From the sequence record SRR31156797_2267: a stretch of 58,330 bases of DNA. The stretch is one strand, 5' to 3'. The notes under the pieces were generated by a model that saw only the letters and a program-made list of their open reading frames with translations, made no database searches and was not told the DNA's origin. This document shows, piece by piece, positions 7,665-43,647 of the stretch. Made by a program: the position numbers and the translations under genes. Numbering within the stretch: position 1 is the first letter of the stretch; each line of letters starts with the position of its first letter.

Positions 7665-7665
7665 G

Positions 7666-8280: not shown

Positions 8281-8286
8281 CTTAAA

Positions 8287-14478: not shown

Positions 14479-15566
14479 TTAACCACCCTTATATATAAAT
14501 CGATAAAAGATTGTGACATTTTATCCAGATTGAAATACTCACATATTCTTTTTTTGCCCAAAATACCCATTTTAATTCTTTTTTCAGGATCATTGATCAG
14601 AAATAATATTTTCTCTCTCAGATCATTAGTATCTTCATTCCTAATGACAAAACCTGTTTCATTGTTTTCTATGATCTCTGATGTACCACCGCTATCGGAG
14701 GCTATCACGGGTTTCCCGATAACCATATATTCCAATATTGAATTTGATATCCCTTCACCATGCATTTGTCCATTTGTCATTAATACGCATAAATCAGAAG
14801 CATTCACAAGAGATTCAATATTCTCCCTTCTTCCAGGCAATTTAATATTGTCATATGTCCTGGAATCATCTCTATACTTCTCAAGATCCTTCCCTTCTCC
14901 AATACCCATAAATGTAATATCATTCCTTTTATCGCATATCTCTTTTGCAACAGCAATATAACTATCATAATCTTTTCTATCCGAAAAAGCCCCAACCATT
15001 GTAACAAGATATTTTGTTTTTATACCATAGCTTTCTCTTGTAATTTCTTTTGTTTCCAGGTTTTTAACCCTATTCATGTCAAAACCGTTATATATGCATT
15101 CAGATTTACCTATCGGGGCATTATAAGACAATAGTCCTGCTTTAGAATTTGCCAGTATTTTGTCCGAATTTCTAAAATTCAATTTTGTCTGCAATCCAAA
15201 TATTGATATCCAATTAATATGTTGAGGGGCATCCGTTATTTGTGAATTTATCAGTTTAAATTTTAATTTCTTCTTTGCGTGGATGGCATACGTAGCATTC
15301 ATGCTTGACCAGCAATGTACAATGTCGGGGTTGATCTCTTTACAGAGCTTATAGAACTTGACAAATATCGAGAGATCACCTTTTCTTTTTTTAATTAAAT
15401 GATATGGATAATCAAGCGTATGAAATTCTGGATAAACAATTTCCTCCCTTAAAGAAACAATATGTATATCAAATCTATGATCATTTTTAAGAGCTTTAAG
15501 AAGCTCTATACAGCGTCTTTCTTTTCCACCGGATCGAAAGCCATCGACAAAAAATACTATTTTCAT
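14475..15566 (-). CDS. Glycosyltransferase family 4
   Basis: SGGKERR, PDIVH, IYNG, RKDY, EGISNSILEYM..GKPV. Confidence 0.88.
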   Translation of the reverse strand: MKIVFFVDGFRSGGKERRCIELLKALKNDHRFDIHIVSLREEIVYPEFHTLDYPYHLIKKRKGDLSIFVKFYKLCKEINPDIVHCWSSMNATYAIHAKKKLKFKLINSQITDAPQHINWISIFGLQTKLNFRNSDKILANSKAGLLSYNAPIGKSECIYNGFDMNRVKNLETKEITRESYGIKTKYLVTMVGAFSDRKDYDSYIAVAKEICDKRNDITFMGIGEGKDLEKYRDDSRTYDNIKLPGRRENIESLVNASDLCVLMTNGQMHGEGISNSILEYMVIGKPVIASDSGGTSEIIENNETGFVIRNEDTNDLREKILFLINDPEKRIKMGILGKKRICEYFNLDKMSQSFIDLYIRVVN

Positions 15567-16885
15567 TCATCACTCGTTGTTAATTGGCTTTCCATAATGG
15601 GTAGCATAAATAATAAGTATTGATTTGCTCCACTGGAATTTACCATGAAGATCGTTATGATATATGGAATGATAGTATAAAATGCGTTCATGGATTTACG
15701 ATTTCTGAAAGCATAAGAAATTAGTCTGATGTGTAAATAAAGAGTAATGAGCAAGAATACAAGCCCCCCTCTATATAAAATATTTACAAAATAATTATGC
15801 GCAGCTCTATAAAAATTAATGATCGTGGGATTACCGAAAATAAAACTCTTGGGATTTGCAAACATATATTGCAAATAAATATTCCATTTCCATATTCTAG
15901 TTCCCTGGTTTTCAACATTCGTGTGAGTAGAAATGGCAAAGTCATCAAAACGACTCATAAACATTATGAACTGATCAAAAAACAACAATATCACAAGGAG
16001 AAAAATAACGATAAGTGCAAAACTTCTATTTTGTCTAATATTCCTGACAAAGTATAAAAATGCTATCACCGCCAAGGCACCCAGTGCAGTTCGAGAAGCC
16101 GCGATCAAAATAGCCATGAGTGAGATCGCCAGAACAATATAATATTTTCTACTGAAATCCTTTCTCTCGATCATGGTCAAAATGTAACCAACATAAATAA
16201 CAATAAATCCTGCAAAGGTATTTACATCTCCTCCCGTAAACAGTCCTTTTGCGCGAATATTACTTGCAAAATCTTCCATAACACCTGTTTCACTCGTCTC
16301 AACATTCAATCCGATAGCATGTAACTGCCATGTAAAGATCGAGCTTAATGCAAGAAAAAGAATACCGAAAAATATACCCATATTTACATAATTTATTAAT
16401 TTTTTATCATATATCAGCGATAGGATCCTCAATAAGATCACGAATTTTAAACAAATCTTAAAATACATCTTAACAAAGGAGAAGAGGCCTTGACTCTCTA
16501 TACCGAATGCGGAATCCTTTAACCAAACATATAGTATATAGACAAGAGAGAAAAATATCATAGATCTGAGAATCTTGATGTACCCTTTTTTCCTTCCTTT
16601 GGATACCGGGATAGAAAATACAATGAAAAATGCAAATATCTGAACCAATTCCTCTATACCGATCACACCCATAAGATTAAATTCCGATGAAATAATTTCA
16701 CCCATGGGTATCAACATCACAAAAAGGGAAATAATAATATATTTATTTAGGAAATATATGACCAAAAGTATAAAGATGATCGTGAAGATCAGTGCAGTAA
16801 AGGCATTTAATGCGGATAAGAGAAGTATTGATGCGGTAAGTACCGAAAATATAAATATAGTTGTTCTATCGAGTTTAAAATCCAT
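15563..16885 (-). CDS. Wzy polymerase / O-antigen ligase family membrane protein
   Basis: About 11-12 TM segments, R..G.F...N motif, ASRTA, periplasmic R..W and AHNYF motif. Confidence 0.7.
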   Translation of the reverse strand: MDFKLDRTTIFIFSVLTASILLLSALNAFTALIFTIIFILLVIYFLNKYIIISLFVMLIPMGEIISSEFNLMGVIGIEELVQIFAFFIVFSIPVSKGRKKGYIKILRSMIFFSLVYILYVWLKDSAFGIESQGLFSFVKMYFKICLKFVILLRILSLIYDKKLINYVNMGIFFGILFLALSSIFTWQLHAIGLNVETSETGVMEDFASNIRAKGLFTGGDVNTFAGFIVIYVGYILTMIERKDFSRKYYIVLAISLMAILIAASRTALGALAVIAFLYFVRNIRQNRSFALIVIFLLVILLFFDQFIMFMSRFDDFAISTHTNVENQGTRIWKWNIYLQYMFANPKSFIFGNPTIINFYRAAHNYFVNILYRGGLVFLLITLYLHIRLISYAFRNRKSMNAFYTIIPYIITIFMVNSSGANQYLLFMLPIMESQLTTSDE

Positions 16886-16914: not shown

Positions 16915-18129
16915 CTAATTATTTACATTGTCTTCTACTTCATCACAAATTCTTATCAATTGTTCATACTTTGCTTCATAGAATTTCAACATATGTTCAT
17001 TCTTCTCATTGTTCATCATATCGTTCAGCATATCAATATAATAAATATCCATCCCATCTTTTGTTGTAGATAGTATGGCAAATGTGAGAATTTTTTTCTC
17101 AAGGCTATCTAAACCGTAAGAGGAAATGAACGGTAGTTTAATATCAGTCTTTTTCATGAAACGAGCTATCTTATCTTGACCAACAATTTGGCTACCAATA
17201 ATATTAGCTAAACGCGTATATCCTTTTTCCACCAAATAATTGCTTGCAAAGATCTCTTCATATTCGGAAATATCAGTTAATAATAGACCTATCCTTGATA
17301 GTAGTCCCACTAATTTCATTTCATCGGGATTGATCATGGCTCTACCTCGACGGCTGATTTCCTTACTGATATTATAAGCTTTTGTAGAAACCGCTTTAAT
17401 GTATTTCAAATAATCATCTTTGTTCTCAATGTACTCACAACTGTCAAGCAATGTGTGTAATATATCAATTGCCGTTTCTTCTGAAATTGTTAAATAATTT
17501 TTAAGTTCGCCATCAACTTCATTTATTGATTTTGAAATTTCCAAATAACTATAATCATGATTAATGGATTTATATCTGTCATGATGTATTCTTTCATTCA
17601 ACGGTCTTTTTTGAGGTGCAAAAGGTTCATTCTTCCGCTTCCCTAAAGGAATGATAACCAGGGGAATATAGGTTTCCGGAAGATCCAATATCTTAGAAAT
17701 TTCTTTTTCGTCAAAGCTACTGATCCATAGCGTATCAATGTCCATAGAATTAGCTGCCAGCATGATATTTTGCGTTGCAGCAGCCGCATCCATATGGATG
17801 AAGATACTGCTACCTTTCTCAGCGGTGGTGTTCGAATGTGAACTAAGTGATCCAACTTTTCTTGCTAGGAACAGATCACCTATCACAACAATAGTCGCAT
17901 CCACTTTAGATGTTTGATTTTGTTGGCAAGGCTTTGTAAGTGCATTTAAAACTTCTTTATCACGTATGACAATAAACTCGAGAGGTTGAATATTCCTGGC
18001 TGAAGGAATAAATTTCGCTGCCTCAAGTAATTTCATCACCGTATCATCATCAATCTTATAATCCTCAATAAACGATCTTACACTACGTCGGCTTTTTATA
18101 ATGTCAAAAACAGTCTCGTATTTACTCAT
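16915..18129 (-). CDS. Nitroreductase-family flavoprotein fused to a degenerate HD domain
   Basis: N-terminal IKSRRSVRSF, PSARNIQP, DAAAATQNIMLAA, LGK; C-terminal half follows the HDIG pattern (GLLSRIG in place of GLLHDIG, LEKKIL). Confidence 0.75.
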   Translation of the reverse strand: MSKYETVFDIIKSRRSVRSFIEDYKIDDDTVMKLLEAAKFIPSARNIQPLEFIVIRDKEVLNALTKPCQQNQTSKVDATIVVIGDLFLARKVGSLSSHSNTTAEKGSSIFIHMDAAAATQNIMLAANSMDIDTLWISSFDEKEISKILDLPETYIPLVIIPLGKRKNEPFAPQKRPLNERIHHDRYKSINHDYSYLEISKSINEVDGELKNYLTISEETAIDILHTLLDSCEYIENKDDYLKYIKAVSTKAYNISKEISRRGRAMINPDEMKLVGLLSRIGLLLTDISEYEEIFASNYLVEKGYTRLANIIGSQIVGQDKIARFMKKTDIKLPFISSYGLDSLEKKILTFAILSTTKDGMDIYYIDMLNDMMNNEKNEHMLKFYEAKYEQLIRICDEVEDNVNN

Positions 18130-18877
18130 TATAAAACTCCTTTGCTATTTCAAGATCATGAAGGTCATCCACTTCACACCATTTATAACCATTCATATCC
18201 ATTGCATACTGAATATAATCTGAATTTTTTACTAGATTATCAATAGCACTATGATGGAAAGAATTGATACCGGCCTGCAGTTGTTCATAAATTTTATCGA
18301 AAAATTGCGTCGAGCCCTTTGCTGAAAATTTATGGATCCCAACCGTACAGCCGTAACCTTCATAAAATGTTTTACTAAATGCTCTAATTTTATTTGATCC
18401 ATTATCAACCAAAACTTTCATTCCGTCTTCCGGCAAGGGGCGTGTACTGTCAATTACTGAGAGATTTTCGAATTCCGAATTAAATACATCGATCAACACT
18501 TGCTTATCATAGAGAATATCACCATTGATAAGAACAAACTGTTTTCCTTTCAAGTACATACTTGATAGCCAAACAGAAAAATTGTTATTAAGTATTGAAT
18601 ACAATGGATTTTCGATCATTTTTATATTCAAAGCATCCAAGTCAAGAGAAGATACGTACTCAATGATCTTTTCCTTCCTGAATCCAATACATATATTTAC
18701 ATCCTTGATCTTGATATCATTGGTTTTGACAATTTCATTCAAATACAACAAGGATTGTCCCAGCATGGTTCTTCCATTAATATCAATGATAGATTTTGGT
18801 GTATCTACCGTCAGGGAGCCTAATCTGCTTCCCATTCCTGCTGCTAAGATCAATATTGAATAATCTGTCTTGCTCAT
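18122..18877 (-). CDS. LicC-like phosphocholine/phosphoalcohol cytidylyltransferase
   Basis: LILAAGMGSRL..PKS, ENPLY, INGDILY, MKV, WCEVDDLHDL. Confidence 0.78.
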   Translation of the reverse strand: MSKTDYSILILAAGMGSRLGSLTVDTPKSIIDINGRTMLGQSLLYLNEIVKTNDIKIKDVNICIGFRKEKIIEYVSSLDLDALNIKMIENPLYSILNNNFSVWLSSMYLKGKQFVLINGDILYDKQVLIDVFNSEFENLSVIDSTRPLPEDGMKVLVDNGSNKIRAFSKTFYEGYGCTVGIHKFSAKGSTQFFDKIYEQLQAGINSFHHSAIDNLVKNSDYIQYAMDMNGYKWCEVDDLHDLEIAKEFYNE

Positions 18878-19842
18878 TTAACCTTCTCCAGAATTTTTGA
18901 ACACTTTGTTAATGAAATTGCTTCATATTCAGAACGAGAAATTTGCCTGAATACTCTTTCTAATATATCCCATATTTTATGATGATCTTCGATCGTTTGA
19001 GTATAAGGACTTTGACCCAATGCCAATTCAGACGAATGAAGCATCATGTTTATTACAGGCATCTCAAGCTTTGCTAATTTATTAATAAATTTATCGTAAT
19101 ATTTCATATCATATTTCGGATTTGGTCTTAACATACTGTATGTATTTAATTTTTTCAGTATTTTTCGTCCCAATCTGCTCATTTTCATTATATTTTTATT
19201 TTTTAAATACTTGCGTAATATTTTGCTAGGCATATTGACTGAAACTGGGATTTCAAACATCCCTGACATATCATCCTTAACCGGGTATAAGCTTTTTTGA
19301 GAAAAATCCGGACCCTTTTGCGATCTACCGATATTATTGCTCCAATTCACTCCGGGAACTACCGATGTATCAACTGAATACTTTTTTTCTTTTAACCACT
19401 TATATGTACGTTCGTCTACTCCCCACCTGCCGGCTCTATGTGATGTTGGAGCTTTCCCAAAATTGCTTTTAATAGTTTCGTGTAAACTATTGGTTTTATC
19501 CCTAAATAGATCATCAGGAAGTTCAAATTGATATGCGTGGATCCAATCCATATCTACACCATTCTTATCATTTGAAAAAGGTGGTGTTGTCCATACATGC
19601 AGATGATGACCAATTTCGCATTTATCCAAATCTGATTTTTGTTTTAGATAATCAACAGCCGGTTTGTAACTGGCATACTCATAAGAAAGCAAGTAAGTAG
19701 GAATGATACCATATTTCTCACATAATTCTTGAAATTTGGGTATTTCCTTGAAATTTTCTAATTTAATCTCAGCCTTTGAGTCCCATGCATTATCAGCCTC
19801 GGTATCTATAGTAATACAAAAATATTTACTGATCTGTTTCAT
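18874..19842 (-). CDS. Polysaccharide deacetylase (CE4, WalW-like)
   Basis: ITIDTEAD, EIGHHLHVWTTPP, HRAGRWG, VDTSV, MLHSSEL. Confidence 0.82.
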   Translation of the reverse strand: MKQISKYFCITIDTEADNAWDSKAEIKLENFKEIPKFQELCEKYGIIPTYLLSYEYASYKPAVDYLKQKSDLDKCEIGHHLHVWTTPPFSNDKNGVDMDWIHAYQFELPDDLFRDKTNSLHETIKSNFGKAPTSHRAGRWGVDERTYKWLKEKKYSVDTSVVPGVNWSNNIGRSQKGPDFSQKSLYPVKDDMSGMFEIPVSVNMPSKILRKYLKNKNIMKMSRLGRKILKKLNTYSMLRPNPKYDMKYYDKFINKLAKLEMPVINMMLHSSELALGQSPYTQTIEDHHKIWDILERVFRQISRSEYEAISLTKCSKILEKVK

Positions 19843-20417
19843 TTTACGACCCGATTAAACCTGAAACCCAGAATAAATCCACTTTTCAATTTACCTATAT
19901 ATTTAAAGCCTACGCGTTCATGAAGTTTTACAGAACCAATTCTATCCGAATAAATCCTACTCAATACAATGGTTTTTTTAAGCTTGAACATTTCATTGAT
20001 AGCATTATAAAGTAAAATACTTCCCAATCTTTTTCCACGAGCTTTATCATTTATGTAGATATTTGATATTTCAAATGATCTTTTCAATTCATTTTGAGGA
20101 GCAGGAGCAGAATAACGCCATTTTCTGCACCATACAGCTCCCATCAGCTCGCTATCTGTGAATATTCCATATGCTGGTATACTTTTTTCAAAACGATCGA
20201 TCAGGAGTGCATTCAGATCATTATAAGAATAATCACCAAGCTCTTTGACCCAACTCTTGATGATCTCTGGAATATCGTTCTTATCAAGTTTCCTGAATTC
20301 AAATTCGATATCGGAATCTATCATTATAAGTTCATTTTTATTTAGACGGTAAAGGGGCATTGCTTTCATTGAATACAAACGTTTTTTTACCCTTCTAAAA
20401 AGCCCTGTAATATTCAT
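19839..20417 (-). CDS. GNAT-family N-acyltransferase
   Basis: IYINDKARGKRLGS acetyl-CoA motif A, SVKLHERVGF motif B; ATG at 20417 lies just after the mutase stop. Confidence 0.75.
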   Translation of the reverse strand: MNITGLFRRVKKRLYSMKAMPLYRLNKNELIMIDSDIEFEFRKLDKNDIPEIIKSWVKELGDYSYNDLNALLIDRFEKSIPAYGIFTDSELMGAVWCRKWRYSAPAPQNELKRSFEISNIYINDKARGKRLGSILLYNAINEMFKLKKTIVLSRIYSDRIGSVKLHERVGFKYIGKLKSGFILGFRFNRVVK

Positions 20418-20418
20418 A

Positions 20419-22341
20419 TTAAAATATATAATTCCCATCTAAAGGCCACATGATGAAATCATTCATAGCTATTCGCTGAAGATCATTTTCTATCATTTGG
20501 AAGAGACTGTTTTTCCGTTCTTTCTTCTTCCTTTCTTCGACCTTTTCCAAGTGAAAATCTTTTATTTGATCGTTAAAGGGTAAATTACCAAATTTAGCGT
20601 ACCTGACTGCACCATTGATATCACGAATACATACAACCTCTCCCCGATTATATCTACTGGGTGAAAATGGGATGTCAATAACACCTTTGGCAAATGCTCT
20701 GATCGCACCTTTAGCCAGATCTCCGGCACCAAGTTTCAAGACAGCTGACATAATAGAATCGACCTCTTTATGAATGATCTTTCTTTCCCGATCAACGATC
20801 TTATGATCAATATCCATATCTTTGGCAAGCATGAACCCACGTTTACTGATCTTTACTCCAAGTTGATTTTCTTTTGTGGATGGAATTTTATGTGCTTCAA
20901 CCGGTGATTTCATCATCATTCTGTCCGCCTTGGAAAGTTGAGCACTTACAGCTGAATTAAAGATGAGCATCTCGGATTTTTCAAAATCACTGGGGAAGGC
21001 TGCCATATATTGGTGGAAAACCGTTGAGATGGTTACATCATTAATTCCAAAATAATGCAAATATTTATTATTCAATTCTCGATTTGCTTGCATTGCGGCA
21101 ATATCCTGTGAACGATTGCCTTGCTCCGCATATCCCACCGATATGCTTTTAACCCCTTGTTTGGCACTTAAGATCGTCTGAATAACATTGACGGCAATTG
21201 CCAATGAAGGAGGTATCAAATTTGCGGTTAAAACCCCGAACCATTCCCTGTTGATAATGATATTATCTTTTTCATTATACATTCCTACCAATCTATCCAC
21301 ATATTGCCAGTATTTCAGGCTTTCGCTTGGAGATGTCTCTTTATCATACGGGAACAGATAGCATAAGAATCCACCCTCAACGGCACTGGCTCCTCCCGAA
21401 ATAGCAATTTCATATGTTAAGCGATGATCCGGAGCTCCCCCACGGATCTGAAAAGGTATCTTTAAACTTTCTACAATATCAATTATTCCCTTTTGTCCAT
21501 ATATGGGAACGGGGAAACCATTAAGAAATGATTTCTTTTTGGCATTGCTGATCTCGACACCTTCTTTTGCCTTTTTATAATTCTTAACTCTGGTAGAGGC
21601 ATCAAGTTGTACAGACCCCACGTCAATATTGATCTTTTCAAGTTCCTGTAGCTTTTTTATTTGAGCTTGCAAGTTCGCTACACCTGTACGAGGCTGAAGT
21701 AAGGGCGTATCATTTTTATTTACTTGAACAAAATTTAGATTTTTATTTGGAAATGAATGCAGTTTTTTTACAATGGACCAATCGATATTTAGCCCGGTCT
21801 CCCAGGTTCTTAGTACTTTAACACGTTCATCTTCTAGTTTTTTCAGATCCCATTTTTGATCCGATATTTCATCAAGATCCGTATCAACTAATTTTGAGTT
21901 ATTATCTTCATGTACTTCATAGGGCCTTAATTTATCCCTTTTAATATCATTTTCAAGAAATTCAATAATATTATTCATAGGGATAAAATTAGGGAAAACC
22001 CTGTCAAATCCCATTTTCATATATTTACGTATCACTTCATTATTTTTCTCAGTGATCGAAAGATGCCCGCCAATATACCAAAGTTGATTTTCATTTTCAT
22101 TGGTATGATGAATGATCTCTTTGGCATATTCATTTAAATAAAGGCCGCTATGTCCATTCTTGCTTGATATCAGGACTATATGATAATCTTTTTCTGAAAC
22201 AAAGAAATCTTGCACGGAATTTTGAATACCGATATTATTAACTGAAAAACCTGCTTCTTTCAATCCCAAGGCGATCAAATTAATGCCTACAGAATGTGCA
22301 TCATCACCTATACCACCCATTAAAACTTTATAACCGTTCAT
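20419..22341 (-). CDS. Single-chain cobalamin-dependent glutamate (methylaspartate) mutase, GlmS+GlmE fusion
   Basis: N-terminal B12-binding DAHSVG (DxHxxG), SSKNGH, YIGG; then GlmE motifs QPRTG, DASTR, LNGFP, QIRGGAPD, EGG..CY..PY, WQYVDRLVG, INREWFG, TVFHQYM, DIPFSPS, RDINGAVRY. Confidence 0.9.
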   Translation of the reverse strand: MNGYKVLMGGIGDDAHSVGINLIALGLKEAGFSVNNIGIQNSVQDFFVSEKDYHIVLISSKNGHSGLYLNEYAKEIIHHTNENENQLWYIGGHLSITEKNNEVIRKYMKMGFDRVFPNFIPMNNIIEFLENDIKRDKLRPYEVHEDNNSKLVDTDLDEISDQKWDLKKLEDERVKVLRTWETGLNIDWSIVKKLHSFPNKNLNFVQVNKNDTPLLQPRTGVANLQAQIKKLQELEKINIDVGSVQLDASTRVKNYKKAKEGVEISNAKKKSFLNGFPVPIYGQKGIIDIVESLKIPFQIRGGAPDHRLTYEIAISGGASAVEGGFLCYLFPYDKETSPSESLKYWQYVDRLVGMYNEKDNIIINREWFGVLTANLIPPSLAIAVNVIQTILSAKQGVKSISVGYAEQGNRSQDIAAMQANRELNNKYLHYFGINDVTISTVFHQYMAAFPSDFEKSEMLIFNSAVSAQLSKADRMMMKSPVEAHKIPSTKENQLGVKISKRGFMLAKDMDIDHKIVDRERKIIHKEVDSIMSAVLKLGAGDLAKGAIRAFAKGVIDIPFSPSRYNRGEVVCIRDINGAVRYAKFGNLPFNDQIKDFHLEKVEERKKKERKNSLFQMIENDLQRIAMNDFIMWPLDGNYIF

Positions 22342-22342: not shown

Positions 22343-23536
22343 CTACTTCTTTATCTTTATGACCTTTAAGAATTTTTCATATAACCGTTTTCTAATGAAA
22401 GACATATTCCTTCTCCCGGGTTTTCTATCTCTGGGATCATATATCTGCCATTCTTTGTTTTTTGCAAAATAGGCTTTTAGAGTTCTCCCTAGTCCATATA
22501 TCCTTTTTTCTGTAATAAATGAGTCTAGAATATACCTGAAATTGATCCAATATGCTTCTTTGGGATATTTAACAGACATTTTGTTTTTTATATCTATACC
22601 TGTTTTGTCATGATATGCCAATTCGGGAAGATTAATATCACATAAGGAAGTTAAATTATGAAATCCCTCTGTTCTGGGACTTACCTCAATAAAATAGAAG
22701 TCATCATCCTCAAGCGAATACTTAAATTCAATTCCCAATATCCCTCTATAATCAGTCGATTCCATAAATTTCTTTGTAAGTTCTTCAATTCTATCGGATT
22801 TGACCGGTTTCCCGATCGCCATGACTCCCCCTGTCTTAGGGTACATGGTATATTTTATTGCTGTAACTATTGAACATAGGTTAGAGTTGAATGATCGATA
22901 TGCCAAAGCTACCCAAATATCAGCTTTATCCCCTTCCTCTTCATAACCGGTGATCAATTCCTGAATAATTATATCTTTTGGTGAATCTACAAATTTTGAT
23001 AATGTGGCTTTGATTTTATCTTTGTTTTCAATAATAAGAGTTTTAAATGGTTTTTTTCCGGCTCCCTGGGAAGGTTTCGCGATCAATTTTCTATTTGGGT
23101 TTATATCTTCATTATCAATGGCTTCCCAAGTTGGAAATTTCCATGTCCGGGGATACGGAATACCTGCTTTTTTAGCTTCTTCCAGCTGACTTTCCTTGAA
23201 AGTAAGCTTATGAAGCTCCTGAGTTGTTAAGAATTCTTTTTCCAAAAGATCGGCATGATCTGTCAACATAGATACCATGTAATCATTGTCAAAATAGAGC
23301 ACATACTTTTCGGATGATTTTTTTGCCAGATCAAGAAGTTTATTCAACAATAAATCTTCATTAAGCTCATCAATTAATACTCTATGATGACAATACTTGC
23401 TGTAATAACCATAATTTAAATTATCCTTAATACCAAGAACAGTTATTTCAACATCTAGTTCATGTAAAGATCTTATTATCTGAAGACCATTCTCACCATG
23501 ACCGAGTATACAAACCAGAACAGGGGCTTTTGACAC
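22343..23536 (-). CDS. ATP-grasp carboxylate-amine ligase (D-aspartate-ligase-like)
   Basis: NGLQIIRSL, AGIPYPRT, IAKP, IIQELI, GILGIEFK, FIEVSPR; GTG start at 23536 after RBS GAGGAG, overlapping the licD stop. Confidence 0.78.
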   Translation of the reverse strand: MSKAPVLVCILGHGENGLQIIRSLHELDVEITVLGIKDNLNYGYYSKYCHHRVLIDELNEDLLLNKLLDLAKKSSEKYVLYFDNDYMVSMLTDHADLLEKEFLTTQELHKLTFKESQLEEAKKAGIPYPRTWKFPTWEAIDNEDINPNRKLIAKPSQGAGKKPFKTLIIENKDKIKATLSKFVDSPKDIIIQELITGYEEEGDKADIWVALAYRSFNSNLCSIVTAIKYTMYPKTGGVMAIGKPVKSDRIEELTKKFMESTDYRGILGIEFKYSLEDDDFYFIEVSPRTEGFHNLTSLCDINLPELAYHDKTGIDIKNKMSVKYPKEAYWINFRYILDSFITEKRIYGLGRTLKAYFAKNKEWQIYDPRDRKPGRRNMSFIRKRLYEKFLKVIKIKK

Positions 23537-24438
23537 TACTTTCTCCTCATCGGAGAGTTTTGTGATATCTCCCATTTTGATCTCGGTGTTTTCCAACTTT
23601 CTCCATAGATTTTTTCCAGTAAATATTCCGGATCACTTGGTACGTTCATTTCCATTTCACAAAATTTTACAACTTTTAATTCTTTAAAGTACTTTTTGTC
23701 ATGAGCCACGGTCATTTTGGGCAGTGTTTTTCTTTTCTTCAAATAATTATCGATCAATTTAAATAGTCTTTTTCTGCTTGATAAAGATAATCTCATTATG
23801 AAAGCAAATCTATTTTTTGATTTTTTTGAAGCTTTATCCATTGGATGAATTTTAATGACCTTATCATCATATTCAATTGTACAGTGATGATGAGTGTTTA
23901 ACTCACCCTGTTCGATCAATAACTCTTTATCTGAATATAGTTCTCCAGGTAAAATACCGGAGTTTAACAGAGCTCTACAGGTAATTCCATATGTTGAATA
24001 AACATTTTCTTCGCGAGGTAATGAGATATTGAGTAACGATCTTATGCCATTTAATATATTAAAAATCTTTGTTGTGAATTTTGTGCCATACTCATAGGCT
24101 ATATTATTTCCTCTACTTTTGTACCTGTGTAGATCAATTCTATATTGCCCATAAGTCCAACCTTTTTGCAGGATTTTAATATTGTTATCAAGAATATTAA
24201 TATGATAACCCTTTTCATCTAGCTCTTTCCATAGGTCTTTGTACTCGGCAATATTCTCATCATCTGTACTCAGGTCAAAGTCTCCATCCCATGGAATTGC
24301 TTCTCCATTTCTAACAGCCCCAAGTAATGTTCCAAAATCAATCCAATATTTCACACGATACTTATCCAATACCTCCTTAATATCTTGAAGCATTAGTATT
24401 GATTTTTCTCTTAATTGTATAATATTTATTTTTTCCAT
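23536..24438 (-). CDS. LicD-family phosphotransferase
   Basis: YWIDFGTLLGAVR..IPWDGDFDL, IDL, C-terminal P..PEYLLEKIYGESWKTP. Confidence 0.85.
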   Translation of the reverse strand: MEKINIIQLREKSILMLQDIKEVLDKYRVKYWIDFGTLLGAVRNGEAIPWDGDFDLSTDDENIAEYKDLWKELDEKGYHINILDNNIKILQKGWTYGQYRIDLHRYKSRGNNIAYEYGTKFTTKIFNILNGIRSLLNISLPREENVYSTYGITCRALLNSGILPGELYSDKELLIEQGELNTHHHCTIEYDDKVIKIHPMDKASKKSKNRFAFIMRLSLSSRKRLFKLIDNYLKKRKTLPKMTVAHDKKYFKELKVVKFCEMEMNVPSDPEYLLEKIYGESWKTPRSKWEISQNSPMRRK

Positions 24439-24445: not shown

Positions 24446-24994
24446 TCATTTCTTAATCGTTAATACATTTTTTTTAACAAACTTTTTTTCATCTAATTTC
24501 AATAAAATATCCTTTTTTTCTTCATTCATGAGACCTTTTGTGTGGACATTGAATTTTTTCATTCGCTCAACCATCTCATTAGTACTTGAGATATATTTAA
24601 TAGGATTTCCGGCAGCAAAGGTATTATCCGGAATGCTTTTATTTACTACTGACATTGCCCCAATAACACAATTCTCTCCAATTTCAACACCAGGCATAAT
24701 TATAGATCGTTGCCCTATATAAGAATTATCACCAATCTTTACTCTACCAAAATAATCAAAATCATCAAGCTCAGGATAAAGATTCCTCACCGATACAAAT
24801 CCTCCATGCGTTAAGATCAATACCTCTGGAGCAATTCTTACATTATTCCCAATTTCAATTAAGTAGGGTTCTGATGAAAAAAATTTAGTAGCAATTTTAC
24901 ACCCATTACCGATTTTAACACCAATGTGTTTAGCATATTTTTCACCAGAAACAAGTTTCTTATAAATCATTTCATAATAGGATTTCAAATTCAT
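24446..24994 (-). CDS. Hexapeptide-repeat O-acyltransferase
   Basis: SEPYLIEIGNNV, THGG, VKIGDNSYIG, IGAMSVVNK, AGNP. Confidence 0.85.
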   Translation of the reverse strand: MNLKSYYEMIYKKLVSGEKYAKHIGVKIGNGCKIATKFFSSEPYLIEIGNNVRIAPEVLILTHGGFVSVRNLYPELDDFDYFGRVKIGDNSYIGQRSIIMPGVEIGENCVIGAMSVVNKSIPDNTFAAGNPIKYISSTNEMVERMKKFNVHTKGLMNEEKKDILLKLDEKKFVKKNVLTIKK

Positions 24995-24999: not shown

Positions 25000-26037
25000 T
25001 TACTCCTTGTTTCCTTCGAGAAGTTTATTATATAACTTAAAGTACATATTACTTACTTCATCTAGAGAAAATTTCTCTATAGTTTTTTTCATTTCATTAT
25101 TATTTAATTCATTTCGATTATTTTTTATTATACTGATTATGTCATCAATATTATTTAAATCACAAATATAACCGTTCTTTGTATTTTCTATATATTCTAT
25201 AAAACCGTGTTTTGAAGATATAACAATACACCCTGATGCCATTGCTTCCAAGCCAACCAAAGGCAGATTTTCATGTCTACTTGGAAATAAAGCAAATTGG
25301 GAAGAATTATAATATTCAGCAACTTCAATTGGTTTTAAACTTCCTAAAAACTTAATATTATTTTCGCTTGATTTATTATATAATGACCCTTTACCAATAA
25401 GTATAAATTCGTATTTCGGTAGCCTTTTTGCAATTGAAAGGATAACATCTACTCCTTTATCGACTGTTAATCTACCAACATATATAATTCTATTTTTTCG
25501 CCTAATAACATTATCTCTCATCTTATAGATATTATTATTTACTCCGTTGGGAATAAACGTTACCCTAATATTGCATTTATTCTCAATATATTTTTTCATG
25601 TGATTGGATACTGTCGTAAACAAATCATATTTTCTTAATATCATTTTCCTAAATAATTTAAATCTTAACCTATACGAGAATTTCCAATTATATTTTTCTT
25701 CTTCGCTATGATGGAATGTCATTATTTTTTTTGTATCATAATTTCTTAGAGCAATGGCAATAGTCGTATTTCCATGAGCATGAATAATATCAGGTTGAAT
25801 TTCGTTAACTAAGCTAATTATTTTTTTTCTACCAGTACCAAGATAATACAACCAATTCTTTTTTTGAATTTTTAAAGTAATAATATTTATTTTATTATGA
25901 TAATACCGGCTATGTTCTTTCCCAAAAACAATCAAATATACTTCATTTTTACTCTCTAATTCGTTTGCTATATCCCATGCAACTTTTTCAGATCCTCCCG
26001 CTGGAGGTAATGAATTTGCGATATATAGTATCTTCAT
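25000..26037 (-). CDS. Glycosyltransferase family 4
   Basis: MKILY..GGSE, PDIIHAH, IPNGV, GRL..DKG, ENLPLVGLEAMASG; start moved to ATG 26037. Confidence 0.85.
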   Translation of the reverse strand: MKILYIANSLPPAGGSEKVAWDIANELESKNEVYLIVFGKEHSRYYHNKINIITLKIQKKNWLYYLGTGRKKIISLVNEIQPDIIHAHGNTTIAIALRNYDTKKIMTFHHSEEEKYNWKFSYRLRFKLFRKMILRKYDLFTTVSNHMKKYIENKCNIRVTFIPNGVNNNIYKMRDNVIRRKNRIIYVGRLTVDKGVDVILSIAKRLPKYEFILIGKGSLYNKSSENNIKFLGSLKPIEVAEYYNSSQFALFPSRHENLPLVGLEAMASGCIVISSKHGFIEYIENTKNGYICDLNNIDDIISIIKNNRNELNNNEMKKTIEKFSLDEVSNMYFKLYNKLLEGNKE

Positions 26038-26050
26038 ATTATCACCGATA

Positions 26051-27517
26051 TTAAATTTTAATAAATGCACTCAACTGTTTCAAATCCAGTAGTTTTCTAT
26101 TTACGTAGATAAATAATATCGTGCTGAAATAGATGACTGCACTTAAGCAAAGAAACAATATCATATTAAGGTTAAGTAATTGCAAAACAAGAATTGGAAC
26201 TATGGGAATCAGCGAAATAATAAATATTTTTACTAAATATTTCCAAGGTATAAATTCTTTCCATTTCACATTCAATAGTTTTTTACTTCTTGCCAACTGT
26301 AAAATACCATTAATACTGAACGATGCCGTAAAGGTGATCGCAGCACCTATAATGCCAAAGAATTTTATTAACGGGAAAGCAATTGCAAGTGATATCGCAA
26401 ATCTTGTAAGATTAGCATAAAGTACATTTGAGGTTTTTGCATAAGCTCGTAAAATATACCCATAGCCTAGCATCTGAATAAAAAATACAAGAATAGTGAT
26501 CCTAAAGACATTAGCTGACATAGAATAATCTTCAGTAAATAGAAGTGTAATGAATTCATTTGCGACAATAAAAAAGAAAATAACTACCGGTATTGTGATC
26601 AGTGCATTTTTATTGACCATTTTTTTCCATAAGCTTAAAGTACCTTCAATATTACCTGTCTTGGAATAGTTGCTGAGACGTTGAATGACAACATTTCCGA
26701 TAGACGTATAAAGTATTGCGATCATTGGGATCCTGAAATTACCCACCGCATATAGTGCAAATTCATCAGAACTAAGAAGGATCATCAATACAAGTTTATC
26801 TAAATGATTGCCTATCTTTCCTATTACTGAACTCAGATACATTGGTAATGAATATTTAAATTGCTTAGCTATGGATCCTTTGTCCATTTTGAAAGGATTG
26901 ATCTTATATTTGATCTTCAAATAAAGATATAATACTAAAAACCTAATAAATGAAAACATGAAAAGAGCCAATAAAGCCGATTCAAGGGTTTTAAATATCA
27001 GAACAAATGTTAATAAAAGAATCAAACGTACAAGTTTTTCTACAGCAAAATAGATCATTGCAAGTTTTGATTTTTTCTCAACTACGAAAATTATCTCGAT
27101 AAGGCGTGATGAGCTCAAAAAGAATATAAAAAGGACAATTAAATAGAGTAATATGCCCTCTTGGGTATTGATCACTTCAACTTTTTTTAATAGAGTATCT
27201 CTGAAAATAAAAGCAATTGTCAATATAATAAAACTATATGCCGCCGGAATATAAAATGATTGCGACATCAGACTCTTTTTCTCTTTTACTTCAGTAGAAT
27301 TTGGATAAAAATAATATAAACTATTCGGAAGAGACAATGATAGCAAAGGAACCGCAAGTGTAGATATTGTAAGAATCTGCTGATAAACTCCATATTGAGT
27401 CTGATTGAAGATTCTTACTAAAATGATCGGAGTAATCAACTGTATAAAAAATGCTATTAATTTACCTATTGATAAATATCCCGCTTGTTGCTTTAATGAG
27501 TATTCGTTTTTAGCCAT
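26051..27517 (-). CDS. wzx: Wzx-type polysaccharide flippase (MATE-like)
   Basis: 12-14 TM segments, ILVRIF..QYGVY, FKYSLP, DKLVL, FGIIGAA. Confidence 0.75.
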   Translation of the reverse strand: MAKNEYSLKQQAGYLSIGKLIAFFIQLITPIILVRIFNQTQYGVYQQILTISTLAVPLLSLSLPNSLYYFYPNSTEVKEKKSLMSQSFYIPAAYSFIILTIAFIFRDTLLKKVEVINTQEGILLYLIVLFIFFLSSSRLIEIIFVVEKKSKLAMIYFAVEKLVRLILLLTFVLIFKTLESALLALFMFSFIRFLVLYLYLKIKYKINPFKMDKGSIAKQFKYSLPMYLSSVIGKIGNHLDKLVLMILLSSDEFALYAVGNFRIPMIAILYTSIGNVVIQRLSNYSKTGNIEGTLSLWKKMVNKNALITIPVVIFFFIVANEFITLLFTEDYSMSANVFRITILVFFIQMLGYGYILRAYAKTSNVLYANLTRFAISLAIAFPLIKFFGIIGAAITFTASFSINGILQLARSKKLLNVKWKEFIPWKYLVKIFIISLIPIVPILVLQLLNLNMILFLCLSAVIYFSTILFIYVNRKLLDLKQLSAFIKI

Positions 27518-28977: not shown

Positions 28978-28979
28978 TT

Positions 28980-30119: not shown

Positions 30120-30459
30120 TCCCCAATGTAAATATTACAACACCAAATATGATAATTATTGATCCAATGATCTGATTTTTAGTCATTTTTTCTTTCAACA
30201 CAGTTATTGATAAAACTGCAACAATAATATAAATAAATGGATTAAATATAATGCCGGTGATCAAGGGTAATTTTGTTAAAGCATATGTATTCAATATAAC
30301 CACTGTAAAGATCAACACATAGCCAATGATCGTCCAGATGTTTAGATAGAATTTTATTAATTTCTTGTCACCATGTCTGTTTGCACCAATTTTCAGCAAT
30401 AGTTGCGCTATTGAAGTTATGATCACACCTAAAGCGAAAGCTAAGTAATATTTAAGCAA
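30106..30459 (-). CDS. SMR/EamA small membrane protein (ArnE/F-like Und-P-sugar flippase subunit)
   Basis: 4 TM segments, AQLLLK, LKEKMT..IIG. Confidence 0.72.
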   Translation of the reverse strand: MLKYYLAFALGVIITSIAQLLLKIGANRHGDKKLIKFYLNIWTIIGYVLIFTVVILNTYALTKLPLITGIIFNPFIYIIVAVLSITVLKEKMTKNQIIGSIIIIFGVVIFTLGNVYA

Positions 30460-31728: not shown

Positions 31729-31750
31729 AAAAATAACCCTGATTTGTGAT

Positions 31751-32323: not shown

Positions 32324-32340
32324 GCGCCTTATTACCTACA

Positions 32341-35426: not shown

Positions 35427-35427
35427 T

Positions 35428-39360: not shown

Positions 39361-39385
39361 TTTAACATACTCCAATTCATTATTA

Positions 39386-41246: not shown

Positions 41247-41259
41247 TCATTACTCGATT

Positions 41260-42711: not shown

Positions 42712-42715
42712 GACT

Positions 42716-43645: not shown

Positions 43646-43647
43646 CT

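What the first reader, a model, noticed from the sequence alone, without database searches (positions are those of the whole stretch)
20419..22341. Single-chain B12 glutamate mutase (GlmS-GlmE fusion) embedded in a surface-polysaccharide operon
Seen: one 640-aa ORF with a DxHxxG cobalamin domain fused to a full GlmE-like barrel, 1 nt from each neighbour, so it belongs to the operon. Against the clostridial GlmE sequence as I recall it, the substrate residues look retained (R66 in QPR, R100 in STR, R149 in QIR, E171 in EGG, Y177/Y181), but RHG reads RGG. Known: glutamate mutase is normally two subunits, acting in glutamate fermentation with methylaspartase and GlmL, or supplying 3-methylaspartate to natural-product clusters such as friulimicin and vicenistatin. 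Neither methylaspartase nor GlmL is in this window. Inference: a radical B12 enzyme supplies a branched amino acid for glycan tailoring, a context I do not know to be described.
Basis: partly seen in the sequence, partly recalled or inferred. Interest (0 to 1): 0.9.

Follow-up and report, generated by a model that had tools for sequence, protein, structure and literature searches.

The report
Single-chain B12 glutamate mutase in glycan locus
A fused, single-chain version of the vitamin-B12 enzyme glutamate mutase sits in a conserved four-gene cassette inside a surface-polysaccharide gene cluster, which suggests that these uncultured bacteria decorate a sugar with the branched amino acid 3-methylaspartate.

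Summary
Window 20419-22341, minus strand, encodes a 640-aa protein. An N-terminal GlmS-like cobalamin domain (DxHxxG at D14/H16/G19) is fused to a complete GlmE barrel (Pfam Met_asp_mut_E E 1.9e-138; TIGR01503 446 bits, cutoff 390).

All eight substrate and coenzyme residues checked are conserved in 132 of 132 sequences.

The fusion is not special to this locus. It defines a large family (909 hits) separated by one branch from 25 split clostridial-type GlmE. Of 113 loci examined, 68 lie beside NRPS genes, usually with an Asp racemase and an AsnB-like enzyme. Thirteen lie in glycan loci, and none was seen in a catabolic operon.

The window belongs to a four-member clade (100* support). In all four, the mutase sits in one cassette between Wzx/GT and Wzy/GT genes:
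- an ATP-grasp ligase
- the mutase
- an N-acyltransferase (GNAT in three loci, formyltransferase in one)
- a CE4-fold deacetylase

My best reading (about 0.55) follows mycothiol-like logic. The cassette makes 3-methylaspartate, ligates it to a de-N-acetylated amino sugar, and caps its amine.

This rests on genomic context only. I found no paper describing it.

The parts
20419..22341 (-). Fused GlmS-GlmE glutamate mutase-like protein, 640 aa (P0001)
   Evidence: ORF. Pfam Met_asp_mut_E 462 bits plus B12-binding 29.7 bits. TIGR01503 446 bits, above the 390 cutoff. PDB 1cb7_B 355 bits.
21931..22341 (-). GlmS-like cobalamin-binding domain (about aa 1-137), DxHxxG = D14/H16/G19
   Evidence: NF002612 matches aa 3-137 at 87.7 bits. 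PDB GlmS chains match aa 5-132. D14, H16 and G19 are conserved in 106, 106 and 105 of 107 fused homologs.
20422..21870 (-). GlmE-like TIM-barrel domain (about aa 158-640) with R218, R251, R300, E322, Y328, Y332, K478 and E482
   Evidence: TIGR01503 matches aa 159-627. The alignment to 1cb7_B covers aa 158-625. All eight residues are conserved in 132 of 132 sequences.
22343..23596 (-). ATP-grasp ligase (P0124), 1 nt upstream of the mutase
   Evidence: Pfam ATP-grasp_3. AF2 pLDDT 87 and Foldseek place it in the ATP-grasp carboxylate-amine ligase fold. The family is small: 11 homologs at 39-81% identity. It lies immediately upstream of the mutase in 4 of 4 clade members.
19839..20438 (-). GNAT N-acetyltransferase (probable start at 20417, 1 nt after the mutase stop)
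   Evidence: Pfam Acetyltransf_1 33 bits. Weak NCBIfam hits to ArsN1 and phosphinothricin N-acetyltransferases fall below their cutoffs. The same position holds a GNAT in L001 and L082 and a Formyl_trans_N protein in L083.
18874..19842 (-). CE4/NodB-fold deacetylase-like protein (P0123)
   Evidence: No Pfam or NCBIfam hit. AF2 pLDDT 93. Foldseek top hits are HP0310 PgdA 3qbu (E 1.4e-9), 3rxz and ArnD 8t0j. Invariant residues are D13, E15, H80, H82, H135, R136 and H269. Present at 50-52% identity in 4 of 4 clade members.
23536..24438 (-). LicD-family phosphotransferase
   Evidence: Pfam LicD 52 bits. Present in 3 of 4 clade loci.
18122..18877 (-). Nucleotidyltransferase (divergent)
   Evidence: Pfam NTP_transferase 22 bits. 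Present only in the window and L001.
16915..18129 (-). Nitroreductase-domain protein with about 200 aa of unassigned C-terminal sequence
   Evidence: Pfam Nitroreductase 97 bits over aa 11-164. Present only in the window and L001.
26051..27517 (-). Wzx-type flippase
   Evidence: Pfam Polysacc_synt 72 bits. 41-43% identical in L001 and L083.
25000..26070 (-). GT4 glycosyltransferase
   Evidence: Pfam Glycos_transf_1 and Glyco_transf_4.
24446..24994 (-). Hexapeptide-repeat acetyltransferase
   Evidence: Pfam Hexapep.
15563..16885 (-). Wzy-like polymerase
   Evidence: Pfam Wzy_C 30 bits, just under the 31.7 cutoff.
13138..14478 (-). PaaK-like adenylate-forming ligase (P0122), a possible second amide ligase
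   Evidence: NCBIfam DVU_1553-family AMP ligase 137 bits, below its cutoff. PDB phenylacetate-CoA ligases E 1.8e-23. Homologs lie within one gene of the mutase in type B glycan loci.
28980..30119 (-). WecE-like dTDP-4-amino-4,6-dideoxyhexose aminotransferase, a candidate source of an acceptor amine
   Evidence: NF008687 530 bits, above the 375 cutoff.
2670..4628 (-). Initiating sugar-phosphate transferase (Bac_transf)
   Evidence: Pfam Bac_transf 88 bits.

Best explanation
The gene encodes a natural single-chain adenosylcobalamin glutamate mutase. A base-off/His-on B12 domain is joined by a linker of about 20 residues to the GlmE barrel. The enzyme converts free L-glutamate to 3-methylaspartate.

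It is the supply step of a four-gene cassette inside a Wzx/Wzy polysaccharide operon. The proposed order follows the logic of mycothiol synthesis (MshB, MshC, MshD):
1. The CE4-fold enzyme removes an N-acetyl or N-formyl group from an amino sugar of the repeat unit or its precursor.
2. The ATP-grasp enzyme activates a carboxylate of 3-methylaspartate as an acyl phosphate and joins it to that amine.
3. The GNAT (a formyltransferase in one relative) caps the amino acid's own amine.

The predicted product is a sugar bearing N-acetyl-3-methylaspartate, a methyl-branched version of the N-acetyl-aspartyl amino sugars already known in O-antigens.

Shown here: the domain architecture, the residue conservation, the cassette synteny and the folds. 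Inferred: the enzyme activity, the order of steps, the acceptor sugar and which carboxylate is used.
For: **Architecture and site**
- R66, R100, R149, E171, Y177, Y181, K326 and E330 (C. cochlearium numbering) are conserved in 132 of 132 sequences: 107 fused and 25 split.
- Three arginines plus E171 argue for a free amino-dicarboxylate substrate. The residue roles are recalled from the GlmE structure papers and come from no call.

**Family context fits an aspartate-type product**
- Of 113 non-duplicate loci, 60 have an Asp/Glu-racemase homolog, 46 an AsnB-like enzyme and 68 NRPS genes. One racemase scores TIGR00035 169 bits.

**Cassette**
- In 4 of 4 independent loci of the window's clade (window, L001, L082, L083; clade support 100*) the order is ATP-grasp, mutase, N-acyltransferase, with the CE4-like gene next to it or two genes further on (L001).
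- These are flanked by Wzx and GT4 (4 of 4; L082's Wzx by Pfam) and, in 3 of 4, a Wzy-like gene (L083 has only an unassigned 444-aa ORF there).
- The swap of GNAT for a formyltransferase at the same position suggests that the step is the capping of an amine.
- The ATP-grasp family is as rare as the mutase clade: 11 close homologs in 5.8 billion proteins. A distant relative, 28% identical over 319 aa, carries an automatic 'D-aspartate ligase' label.
- P0123 has a CE4 deacetylase fold, with ArnD and PgdA among the top hits.

**Operon**
- Gaps are 1 nt on both sides. Promoter and terminator matches do not exceed chance. GC content is uniform.

**Not catabolic**
- The ORFs scanned in the window gave no methylaspartase or GlmL family hit.
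- In G001-G003 the fused gene is the only Met_asp_mut_E match.
- There is no clear MAAL_C match in 6 relatives' genomes.
- A CobA/BtuR-type adenosyltransferase is present in 3 of 3.

**Precedent**
- D-aspartyl-Fuc4N and N-acetyl-D/L-aspartyl-Qui4N occur in known glycans (PMC10609480, passages read).
- The window encodes a WecE-like 4-aminotransferase.
Against: - No activity has been measured for any member of the fused family. I found no characterised member in the papers searched.
- Three positions near the site differ from all 25 split GlmE: Y98 is S, H150 is G and H329 is V. A shifted substrate or stereochemistry is therefore possible.
- The B12-binding Pfam score is just under its cutoff.
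- The type A loci have no racemase, unlike most other contexts.
- The ATP-grasp fold match is generic: biotin carboxylase, PurK and PylC. The 'D-aspartate ligase' label is automatic and distant.
- The acceptor is unknown. The WecE-like gene is not conserved with the cassette: the window's WecE-like aminotransferase has a tblastn relative only in L001 among the three other type A loci.
- The copy in L001/L081 carries an in-frame TAA.
- The organism's own genome is not held, so its B12 supply is inferred from relatives only.
- PduO-type adenosyltransferase was found in 0 of 3 relatives.
Confidence: 0.55

Rival explanations
1. The supply step is the same, but the linkage is the opposite one. The ATP-grasp enzyme activates a uronic-acid carboxylate of the glycan and amidates it with the alpha-amine of 3-methylaspartate. 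This would resemble the Cj1438 amidoligase of Campylobacter (recalled) and the Glu, Ser, Lys and Thr uronamides known in glycans. The GNAT and the CE4 enzyme would then act on a different sugar.
For: - Amino acids amide-linked to uronic acids are common in O-antigens and capsules (PMC10609480, passages read).
- The window has WbpB/E/D-like genes at 48740-51403 (GFO_IDH_MocA, DegT, Hexapep). These often belong to diamino-uronic acid pathways (recalled).
- The ATP-grasp fold cannot tell the two directions apart.
Against: - No UDP-sugar 6-dehydrogenase was found among the window's ORFs.
- This reading leaves unexplained why an N-acyltransferase (GNAT or formyltransferase) and a deacetylase travel with the mutase and the ligase in 4 of 4 loci.
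Confidence: 0.2
2. The fused enzyme is not a glutamate mutase in the strict sense. The changes at Y98, H150 and H329 retune it to another amino-dicarboxylate, to D-glutamate or to a different stereochemical outcome. The cassette would then install a different branched acid.
For: - Y98 and H329 differ from all 25 split GlmE in 104 of 107 and 107 of 107 fused proteins.
- H150 is G or A throughout the window's half of the tree.
- Fused proteins score 380-460 bits on PF06368, against 700-786 bits for split GlmE.
Against: - The three arginines, E171, both tyrosines, K326 and E330 are invariant.
- TIGR01503, an equivalog model, is passed at 446 bits against a 390 cutoff.
- The commonest partners in the family (Asp racemase, AsnB-like, TauD) are those expected for an aspartate-like product.
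Confidence: 0.12
3. The cassette modifies peptidoglycan or makes a soluble metabolite, not the polysaccharide. By analogy with D-aspartate ligase, which adds D-Asp to the peptidoglycan precursor, its position in the glycan locus would be incidental.
For: - The distant ATP-grasp relative is labelled D-aspartate ligase.
- Some fused mutases stand alone among unrelated genes. L015, L075, L025 and L014 have HD, PurH or restriction-modification neighbours.
Against: - In 4 of 4 loci the cassette lies between the Wzx/GT genes and the Wzy/GT genes, with 1-nt gaps in the window.
- A second mutase clade is again beside Wzx and GT genes.
Confidence: 0.08
4. The enzyme is a catabolic glutamate mutase of the methylaspartate fermentation pathway that happens to lie in this locus.
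For: - Cloacimonadota-like organisms ferment amino acids (recalled).
- GlmL/MutL-family genes exist elsewhere in the three relatives' genomes.
Against: - The window has no methylaspartase.
- Six relatives' genomes have no clear MAAL_C match; the best is 27.3 bits and is borderline.
- None of the neighbour gene families I identified in the 113 loci examined is catabolic.
- The gene is translationally packed into a glycan operon.
Confidence: 0.03

Closest known systems
Clostridial AdoCbl glutamate mutase GlmS/GlmE (MutS/MutE), C. cochlearium and C. tetanomorphum; PDB 1CB7, 1CCW, 1I9C, 6H9E
   Same: - Both domains are present: GlmE at 355 bits and GlmS at 38 bits.
- The DxHxxG motif is present.
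- R66, R100, R149, E171, Y177, Y181, K326 and E330 are retained.
   Different: - It is one chain, with sigma N-terminal to epsilon, instead of an epsilon2-sigma2 heterotetramer.
- Y98 is S, H150 is G and H329 is V.
- There are no methylaspartase or GlmL neighbours.
- The context is biosynthetic (glycan), not fermentative.
- The fused family is separated from 25 split GlmE by one branch with 100* support.
Engineered GlmES fusion protein of the Marsh laboratory (recalled; not retrieved in any call)
   Same: It showed that a single-chain glutamate mutase can be active.
   Different: It was man-made, with the order epsilon then sigma as I recall. The protein here is natural, with the order sigma then epsilon, and belongs to a family of at least 909 proteins.
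Glutamate mutases of secondary metabolism: friulimicin GlmA/GlmB and vicenistatin VinH/VinI with homologs SceL/SceM
   Same: They supply 3-methylaspartate as a biosynthetic building block. Passages were read in PMC9113097 and PMC5785472.
   Different: Those enzymes have two subunits and feed NRPS or PKS assembly lines. Here the enzyme is fused and the consumer is predicted to be a polysaccharide pathway.
The fused sigma-epsilon family in NRPS clusters of Chitinophaga, Acidobacteriota and Actinomycetota (loci L002-L114)
   Same: The architecture and conserved site are the same, at 35-51% identity.
   Different: Their neighbours are NRPS, Asp racemase, AsnB-like and TauD genes. The window's clade has ATP-grasp, GNAT, CE4, Wzx and Wzy genes instead. 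I found no paper on these enzymes.
N-acetyl-D/L-aspartyl-Qui4N (Providencia O33, O4) and D-aspartyl-Fuc4N (Treponema medium) glycans
   Same: An acidic amino acid is amide-linked to an amino sugar, and its own amine is often acetylated (PMC10609480). This is the predicted product class.
   Different: Those carry plain aspartate. No 3-methylaspartate-bearing glycan turned up in my searches.
Mycothiol pathway MshB, MshC, MshD (recalled)
   Same: The logic matches: deacetylase, then ATP-dependent amino-acid ligase, then GNAT capping on an amino sugar.
   Different: The enzyme families are unrelated (MshC is a Cys-tRNA-synthetase-like ligase). Mycothiol is a small-molecule thiol, not a polymer. 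The resemblance is in logic only.

Membership tests
AdoCbl-dependent glutamate mutase (EC 5.4.99.1), GlmS+GlmE | GlmE (epsilon) TIM-barrel domain matching the family model above its curated cutoff | tested here: met
   PF06368 462 bits against a 26.6 cutoff. TIGR01503 equivalog 446 bits against a 390 cutoff.
AdoCbl-dependent glutamate mutase (EC 5.4.99.1), GlmS+GlmE | Cobalamin-binding sigma domain with the base-off/His-on motif DxHxxG | tested here: met
   D14, H16 and G19 are present and conserved in 105-106 of 107 fused homologs. Model scores fall below the curated cutoffs: PF02310 29.7 against 32.1, and NF002612 87.7 against 110. PDB GlmS E 5.6e-9.
AdoCbl-dependent glutamate mutase (EC 5.4.99.1), GlmS+GlmE | Substrate 'arginine claw' R66/R100/R149 plus E171, Y177 and Y181 (roles recalled from the structure papers) | tested here: met
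   All are conserved in the window protein and in 132 of 132 aligned sequences.
AdoCbl-dependent glutamate mutase (EC 5.4.99.1), GlmS+GlmE | Adenosyl-ribose contacts K326 and E330 (roles recalled) | tested here: met
   K478 and E482 are conserved in 132 of 132 sequences.
AdoCbl-dependent glutamate mutase (EC 5.4.99.1), GlmS+GlmE | Second-shell residues Y98, H150 and H329, invariant in split GlmE | tested here: not met
   The window has S, G and V. All 25 split GlmE have Y, H and H.
AdoCbl-dependent glutamate mutase (EC 5.4.99.1), GlmS+GlmE | Two separate subunits encoded by separate genes | tested here: not met
   One 640-aa chain. 118 of the 120 best homologs are 626-668 aa long.
AdoCbl-dependent glutamate mutase (EC 5.4.99.1), GlmS+GlmE | Catalysis of L-glutamate to (2S,3S)-3-methylaspartate | not testable with these tools
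   Needs an enzyme assay.
Methylaspartate fermentation operon | Linked methylaspartase and GlmL | tested here: not met
   None among the window ORFs scanned. There is no clear MAAL_C match in 6 relatives' genomes. MutL-family genes exist in G001-G003 but are not linked.
Wzx/Wzy-dependent polysaccharide locus | Wzx flippase, Wzy polymerase, initiating transferase and glycosyltransferases on one strand | tested here: met
   Polysacc_synt at 26051-27517 and 41260-42711, three GT4 genes, GT2 and Bac_transf. Wzy_C scores only 30 bits against a 31.7 cutoff.
ATP-grasp carboxylate-amine ligases (for P0124) | ATP-grasp fold and family match | tested here: met
   PF02655 28 bits against a 23.2 cutoff. 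AF2 pLDDT 87. Foldseek E 1e-15 to biotin carboxylase, PurK and PylC.
D-aspartate ligase (Aslfm type) (for P0124) | Close similarity to a characterised D-aspartate ligase | tested here: inconclusive
   The only link is 28% identity over 319 aa to a metagenome protein that a source labels 'D-aspartate ligase'. No characterised sequence was at hand.
CE4/NodB metal-dependent deacetylases (for P0123) | NodB fold with an Asp-His-His metal site | tested here: inconclusive
   The fold matches, with TM-scores of 0.56-0.64 to 3qbu and 3rxz. D13, H80 and H82 are invariant in 41 sequences. I did not verify that they superpose on the metal ligands. There is no PF01522 hit.

The most novel reading that the evidence does not exclude
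These bacteria make a cobalamin-conditional surface antigen. The product is a Wzx/Wzy polysaccharide whose amino sugar carries N-acyl-3-methylaspartate, a residue I could not find reported in any glycan. It would be produced by a radical B12 enzyme, so the structure of the cell surface would depend on B12 supply.

The same unrecognised single-chain mutase family (at least 909 proteins) would also be the general source of beta-methyl-aspartate or beta-methyl-asparagine in uncharacterised NRPS products of Bacteroidota, Acidobacteriota and Actinomycetota.
Probability: 0.4. Interest if true: 0.72.

Novelty: new variant of a known kind. Interest (0 to 1): 0.62.

Why it matters
- **A new use for the chemistry.** Glutamate mutase is a textbook radical B12 enzyme, known from fermentation and from a few antibiotic pathways, always as two subunits. 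Here a natural single-chain form turns out to be a large, unstudied family. One clade of it is wired into polysaccharide assembly. If the prediction holds, it adds a new non-sugar building block, 3-methylaspartate, to bacterial glycans.
- **An ecological link.** It ties surface-antigen structure to cobalamin availability in uncultured anaerobes.
- **A practical tool.** A one-gene glutamate mutase would be convenient for enzymology and for making beta-methyl-aspartate.
- **Candidate new enzymes.** The accompanying ATP-grasp family (11 close homologs) and the CE4-fold family (603 homologs, all annotated hypothetical) become candidates for amino-acid-to-sugar ligation and for sugar de-N-acylation.

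Tried and rejected
- No whole genome is held for the window, so B12 metabolism could be checked only in relatives.
The contexts of the 89%-identical metagenome homologs (P0002, P0003) were therefore not seen.

**Searches that needed a second attempt**
- The search for related loci with the single protein found nothing in genome contigs. The alignment query worked.

**Literature searches that led nowhere**
- Glutamate mutase + polysaccharide + ATP-grasp: 0 papers.
- Methylaspartate + O-antigen: 10 papers, all irrelevant judging by title and abstract start.
- GlmE residue names: nothing relevant.
- ATP-grasp + O-antigen + amide-linked: 67 papers, 20 listed, none on this subject judging by title.
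- Chitinophaga + glutamate mutase: 0 papers.
- 'methylaspart' + repeating unit + polysaccharide: 1 irrelevant paper.
- Supplements were not consulted.

**Uninformative results**
- Foldseek of the ATP-grasp model gave only generic ATP-grasp folds. The ESM Atlas gave only 'hypothetical protein' clusters.
- Promoter and terminator scans were at chance level.
- Sequencing runs: one DNA holder and no RNA holder listed.

**Ideas rejected or set aside**
- The H150G change as a glycan-specific specificity switch. It also occurs in NRPS-linked members.
- LicD, the NTP-transferase and the nitroreductase as part of the mutase pathway. They are absent from L082, and two of them are absent from L083. I treat them as a separate module.
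- The catabolic reading (see rival explanations).

**Not run**
- Complex prediction and the search of protein representatives.


Full report
**1. The observation**

The ORF listed at 20419..22341 lies on the minus strand. The plus-strand reading is broken by many stops, and the minus-strand reading is a clean 640-aa protein, P0001.

Domain matches:
- Pfam gives Met_asp_mut_E over residues 205-628 (462 bits, E 1.9e-138). B12-binding over residues 5-99 scores 29.7 bits, just under the 32.1 gathering score.
- NCBIfam gives the GlmE equivalog TIGR01503 at 446 bits (cutoff 390). The GlmS model NF002612 scores 87.7 bits (E 5e-25, below its 110 cutoff) over residues 3-137.
- Against solved structures, the best matches are the C. 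cochlearium epsilon chain 1cb7_B (355 bits, query 158-625) and GlmS chains (34-38 bits, query 5-132).

The sequence GDDAHSVG supplies DxHxxG (D14, H16, G19).

I numbered the printed alignment to 1cb7_B by hand. R66, R100, R149, E171, Y177, Y181, K326 and E330 are retained. H150 is Gly, Y98 is Ser and H329 is Val. The roles of these residues are recalled from the GlmE structure and mutagenesis papers; my library search for them found nothing relevant.

The upstream gene ends TAG, one base before the mutase ATG. The mutase TAA is followed after one base by an ATG of the next gene.

**2. The family**

A search of 5.8 billion proteins returned 909 hits among 8000 scored candidates. Of the 120 best, 118 are 626-668 aa long, so they share the fused architecture. 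Named examples come from Chitinophaga, Mucilaginibacter and Cyclobacteriaceae.

Locus retrieval gave 80 genome loci (107 of 217 pattern matches encoded relatives) and 34 metagenome loci. L081 is identical to L001 over 18150 bases. Removing these two leaves 113 loci, counting the window.

For comparison I drew 25 split GlmE genes from a sample of 301 genomes of one Bacillota-type phylum. In that sample, 82 genomes have a match over the cutoff. The split genes are 482-504 aa long and score 759-786 bits on PF06368 (the wider set of split-form matches in that call runs down to about 440 bits), against 380-460 bits for fused proteins.

On an E-domain tree, the 25 split and the 107 fused proteins are separated by a single branch with 100* support. 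The method was FastTree, with a long-branch warning.

Residue comparison:

| Position (C. cochlearium numbering) | 25 split GlmE | 107 fused proteins |
|---|---|---|
| R66, R100, R149, E171, Y177, Y181, K326, E330 | conserved in all | conserved in all |
| Y98 | Y in 25 | Y in 3; otherwise S, A, L, M, H or F |
| H329 | H in 25 | V or A in 107 |
| H150 | H in 25 | H in 48; G or A in the rest |

For H150 within the fused family:
- The window's clade has G in 4 of 4.
- The second glycan clade has A in 8 of 8.
- The NRPS-linked proteins split as H 34, G 18 and A 15.

The RGG change is therefore a lineage trait and not a mark of the glycan context.

**3. Contexts of the family**

I clustered neighbouring ORFs, named the clusters with Pfam and NCBIfam and scored their presence by tblastn.

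| Neighbour within about 10 kb | Loci out of 113 |
|---|---|
| NRPS genes | 68 |
| Asp/Glu-racemase homolog | 60 |
| AsnB-like amidotransferase | 46 |
| TauD-type hydroxylase | 34 |
| L-amino-acid-ligase-type ATP-grasp genes (Streptomyces and relatives) | 9 |
| Glycan genes | 13 |

- The racemase usually sits directly upstream of the mutase. One example scores TIGR00035 169 bits.
- The NRPS label means a tblastn match of at least 180 aa to one Chitinophaga NRPS, so it may include stand-alone adenylating enzymes.
- Four loci that I inspected by Pfam have unrelated neighbours: an HD protein, PurH and restriction-modification genes.
- None of the neighbour gene families I identified is a catabolic partner.

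Equally, glycan loci are a minority context.

**4. The window's clade and its cassette**

On a tree of 107 full-length mutases, the window groups with L001 (a Cloacimonetes single-cell genome, 70% identical), L082 (70%) and L083 (64%) at 100* support.

In all four loci, tblastn and Pfam show the same core:
- A P0124-like ATP-grasp gene lies immediately upstream of the mutase (39-41% identity).
- An N-acyltransferase lies immediately downstream. It is a GNAT in the window, L001 and L082, and a Formyl_trans_N protein in L083.
- A P0123-like gene lies nearby (50-52% identity).
- On the upstream side are Wzx and GT4 genes (L082's Wzx seen by Pfam only). On the downstream side a Wzy-like gene is seen in the window, L001 and L082 (Pfam Wzy_C just under its cutoff in the window, over it in L082; L001 by tblastn only); L083 has a GT4 gene and an unassigned 444-aa ORF there.

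Other genes are less consistent:
- LicD is present in 3 of 4 loci.
- The nucleotidyltransferase and the nitroreductase-domain gene are present in only 2 of 4, so I treat them as a separate module.
- A PaaK-like adenylating enzyme (P0122) is present in the window. Partial tblastn matches to it lie at the cut ends of L082 (57 aa) and L083 (222 aa).

*P0124.*
- It has only 21 hits in the big protein search, 11 of them at 39-81% identity.
- A 28%-identical relative carries an automatic 'D-aspartate ligase' label.
- Its AF2 model (pLDDT 87) matches ATP-grasp carboxylate-amine ligases in general.

*P0123.*
- It has no Pfam or NCBIfam family.
- It has 603 homologs, of which every one of the 120 listed that carries a source's name is called hypothetical or has only an uninformative label.
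- Its AF2 model (pLDDT 93) matches CE4/NodB deacetylases. The top hits are H. pylori PgdA 3qbu (E 1.4e-9), 3rxz and the deformylase ArnD 8t0j.
- D13, E15, H80, H82, H135, R136 and H269 are invariant across 41 sequences.

**5. A second glycan clade**

Eight full-length loci fall inside another 100*-supported clade of 14. These are L010, L016, L017, L019, L020, L024, L027 and L107, from Ignavibacteriota, Zixibacteria and Thermodesulfobacteriota MAGs. The partial locus L043 has the same kind of context.

They carry Wzx, a PaaK-like ligase (27-32% identical to the window's P0122), an Asp racemase, the mutase and an AsnB-like gene.

L016, L019 and L020 are near-copies of one another, and L024 and L107 are close. 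The number of independent lineages is therefore about six.

The association of the fused mutase with glycan loci thus occurs with two different ligase solutions.

**6. The locus**

Nearly every gene from about 51.4 kb down to 0.1 kb is on the minus strand and is glycan-related:
- two Wzx genes
- a NusG-like gene at 47193-47717
- two sulfotransferases and an MBOAT protein
- RmlA-like and RmlB-like genes
- three DegT aminotransferases, one of them WecE-like at 530 bits against a 375 cutoff
- a GT2, EamA-pair and multi-pass membrane protein set
- a KASIII, AMP-ligase, SDR and GNAT acyl set
- WbuX with HisH-like and HisF-like genes
- two UDP-GlcNAc 2-epimerases
- a Bac_transf initiating transferase

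No UDP-sugar 6-dehydrogenase was seen. GC content is about 33% throughout. Promoter and terminator matches are at chance level.

**7. B12 and catabolism in relatives**

The window's own genome is not held. I searched the genomes containing L001, L016 and L024 (G001-G003) instead:
- The fused gene is the only Met_asp_mut_E match in each.
- MAAL_C gives no match in G001 and only 27-bit and 19-bit hits in the other two. The same model also 'rings' in 11 of 14 control genomes.
- Three further relatives' genomes gave no match over the cutoff.
- MutL/GlmL-family genes are present in all three, but elsewhere in the genome.
- PduO-type adenosyltransferase was found in 0 of 3. CobA/BtuR-type was found in 3 of 3.
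- These are incomplete genomes, so an absence is weak evidence.

**8. Mechanism**

The conserved arginine claw and E171 argue that the substrate is a free amino-dicarboxylate. The commonest partners across the family (Asp racemase, AsnB-like, TauD) fit an aspartate-like product. I therefore take the reaction to be L-glutamate to 3-methylaspartate, at about 0.75.

The cassette's make-up is a sugar-type deacetylase, an ATP-dependent carboxylate-amine ligase and an amine-capping acyltransferase that can be either an acetyl- or a formyl-transferase. This is the logic of mycothiol synthesis (recalled). It would yield an N-acyl-3-methylaspartyl amino sugar.

Plain N-acetyl-aspartyl-Qui4N and D-aspartyl-Fuc4N are known glycan residues (PMC10609480, passages read).

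The order of steps, the acceptor and the carboxylate used are all inferred. The opposite linkage, a uronic-acid amide, is the main rival.

**9. Novelty**

I found no paper linking glutamate mutase or 3-methylaspartate to a polysaccharide. I found none on the natural fused family either. These searches cover only the open-access library.

The enzyme is a new variant of a known kind. The predicted glycan residue and the B12-dependence of a surface polysaccharide would be new.

Noticed in passing
L001:9992-11917 and L081:6231-8156: The 70%-identical mutase of the Cloacimonetes single-cell genome has an in-frame TAA at codon 293, where the window has Ser292. The two records are identical over 18150 bases, so this may be one assembly filed twice. 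It could be a sequencing error or a real pseudogene.
   Followed up: partly
window 16915-18877 and 23536-24438: LicD, a divergent nucleotidyltransferase and a nitroreductase-domain protein with about 200 aa of unassigned C-terminal sequence travel together in the window and L001 only. The trio recalls the F420 tail pathway (nucleotidyl activation of a phospho-acid, transfer, then flavin-dependent reduction), so it may add a phospho-linked acid to the glycan. This is speculation.
   Followed up: partly
window 27526-35438: This stretch looks like an Arn-like set: SDR, AMP-ligase, KASIII, GNAT, GT2, two small EamA proteins, a WecE-like aminotransferase and a 483-aa multi-pass membrane protein with no family (P0125). 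It suggests an N-acylated 4-amino-6-deoxyhexose carried on undecaprenyl phosphate and attached outside the membrane.
   Followed up: no
window 38308-47717: A second, upstream polysaccharide unit starts with a NusG-like gene, as in Bacteroides capsule loci (recalled). It holds its own Wzx, two sulfotransferases and an MBOAT acyltransferase, which suggests a sulfated glycan.
   Followed up: no
window 6903-9417: WbuX (261 bits, above the 203 cutoff) sits with HisH-like and HisF-like genes. This is the set associated with acetamidino sugars.
   Followed up: no
L031-L035, L038, L044, L076 (Streptomyces, Kitasatospora, Trebonia): Here the fused mutase sits with several L-amino-acid-ligase-type ATP-grasp genes, TauD, PhyH, a cyclase, an HMGL-like enzyme and an MFS transporter. 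This looks like an uncharacterised ribosome-independent peptide cluster.
   Followed up: partly
L015, L075, L025, L014: In these MAGs the fused mutase stands alone among unrelated genes (HD protein, PurH, type I restriction-modification), with no obvious consumer of its product.
   Followed up: partly
G001:C34 and C22, G002:C1, G003:C33: GlmL/MutL-family genes (343-438 bits) are present in the three relatives' genomes but are unlinked to the fused mutase. They may serve other B12 mutases or act in trans.
   Followed up: no
window 56825-57862 (+): An enolase-superfamily gene (MR_MLE_C, 119 bits) lies just outside the glycan locus on the other strand. It matches the MR/MLE models and not the methylaspartase models.
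   Followed up: no
(protein tables): Mutase, ATP-grasp and CE4-like homologs share 'longest contig' values. P0006, P0128 and P0149 share 35668. P0133 and P0151 share 43341. P0051 and P0135 share 19171. This hints at three more loci with the same cassette that I could not fetch.
   Followed up: no
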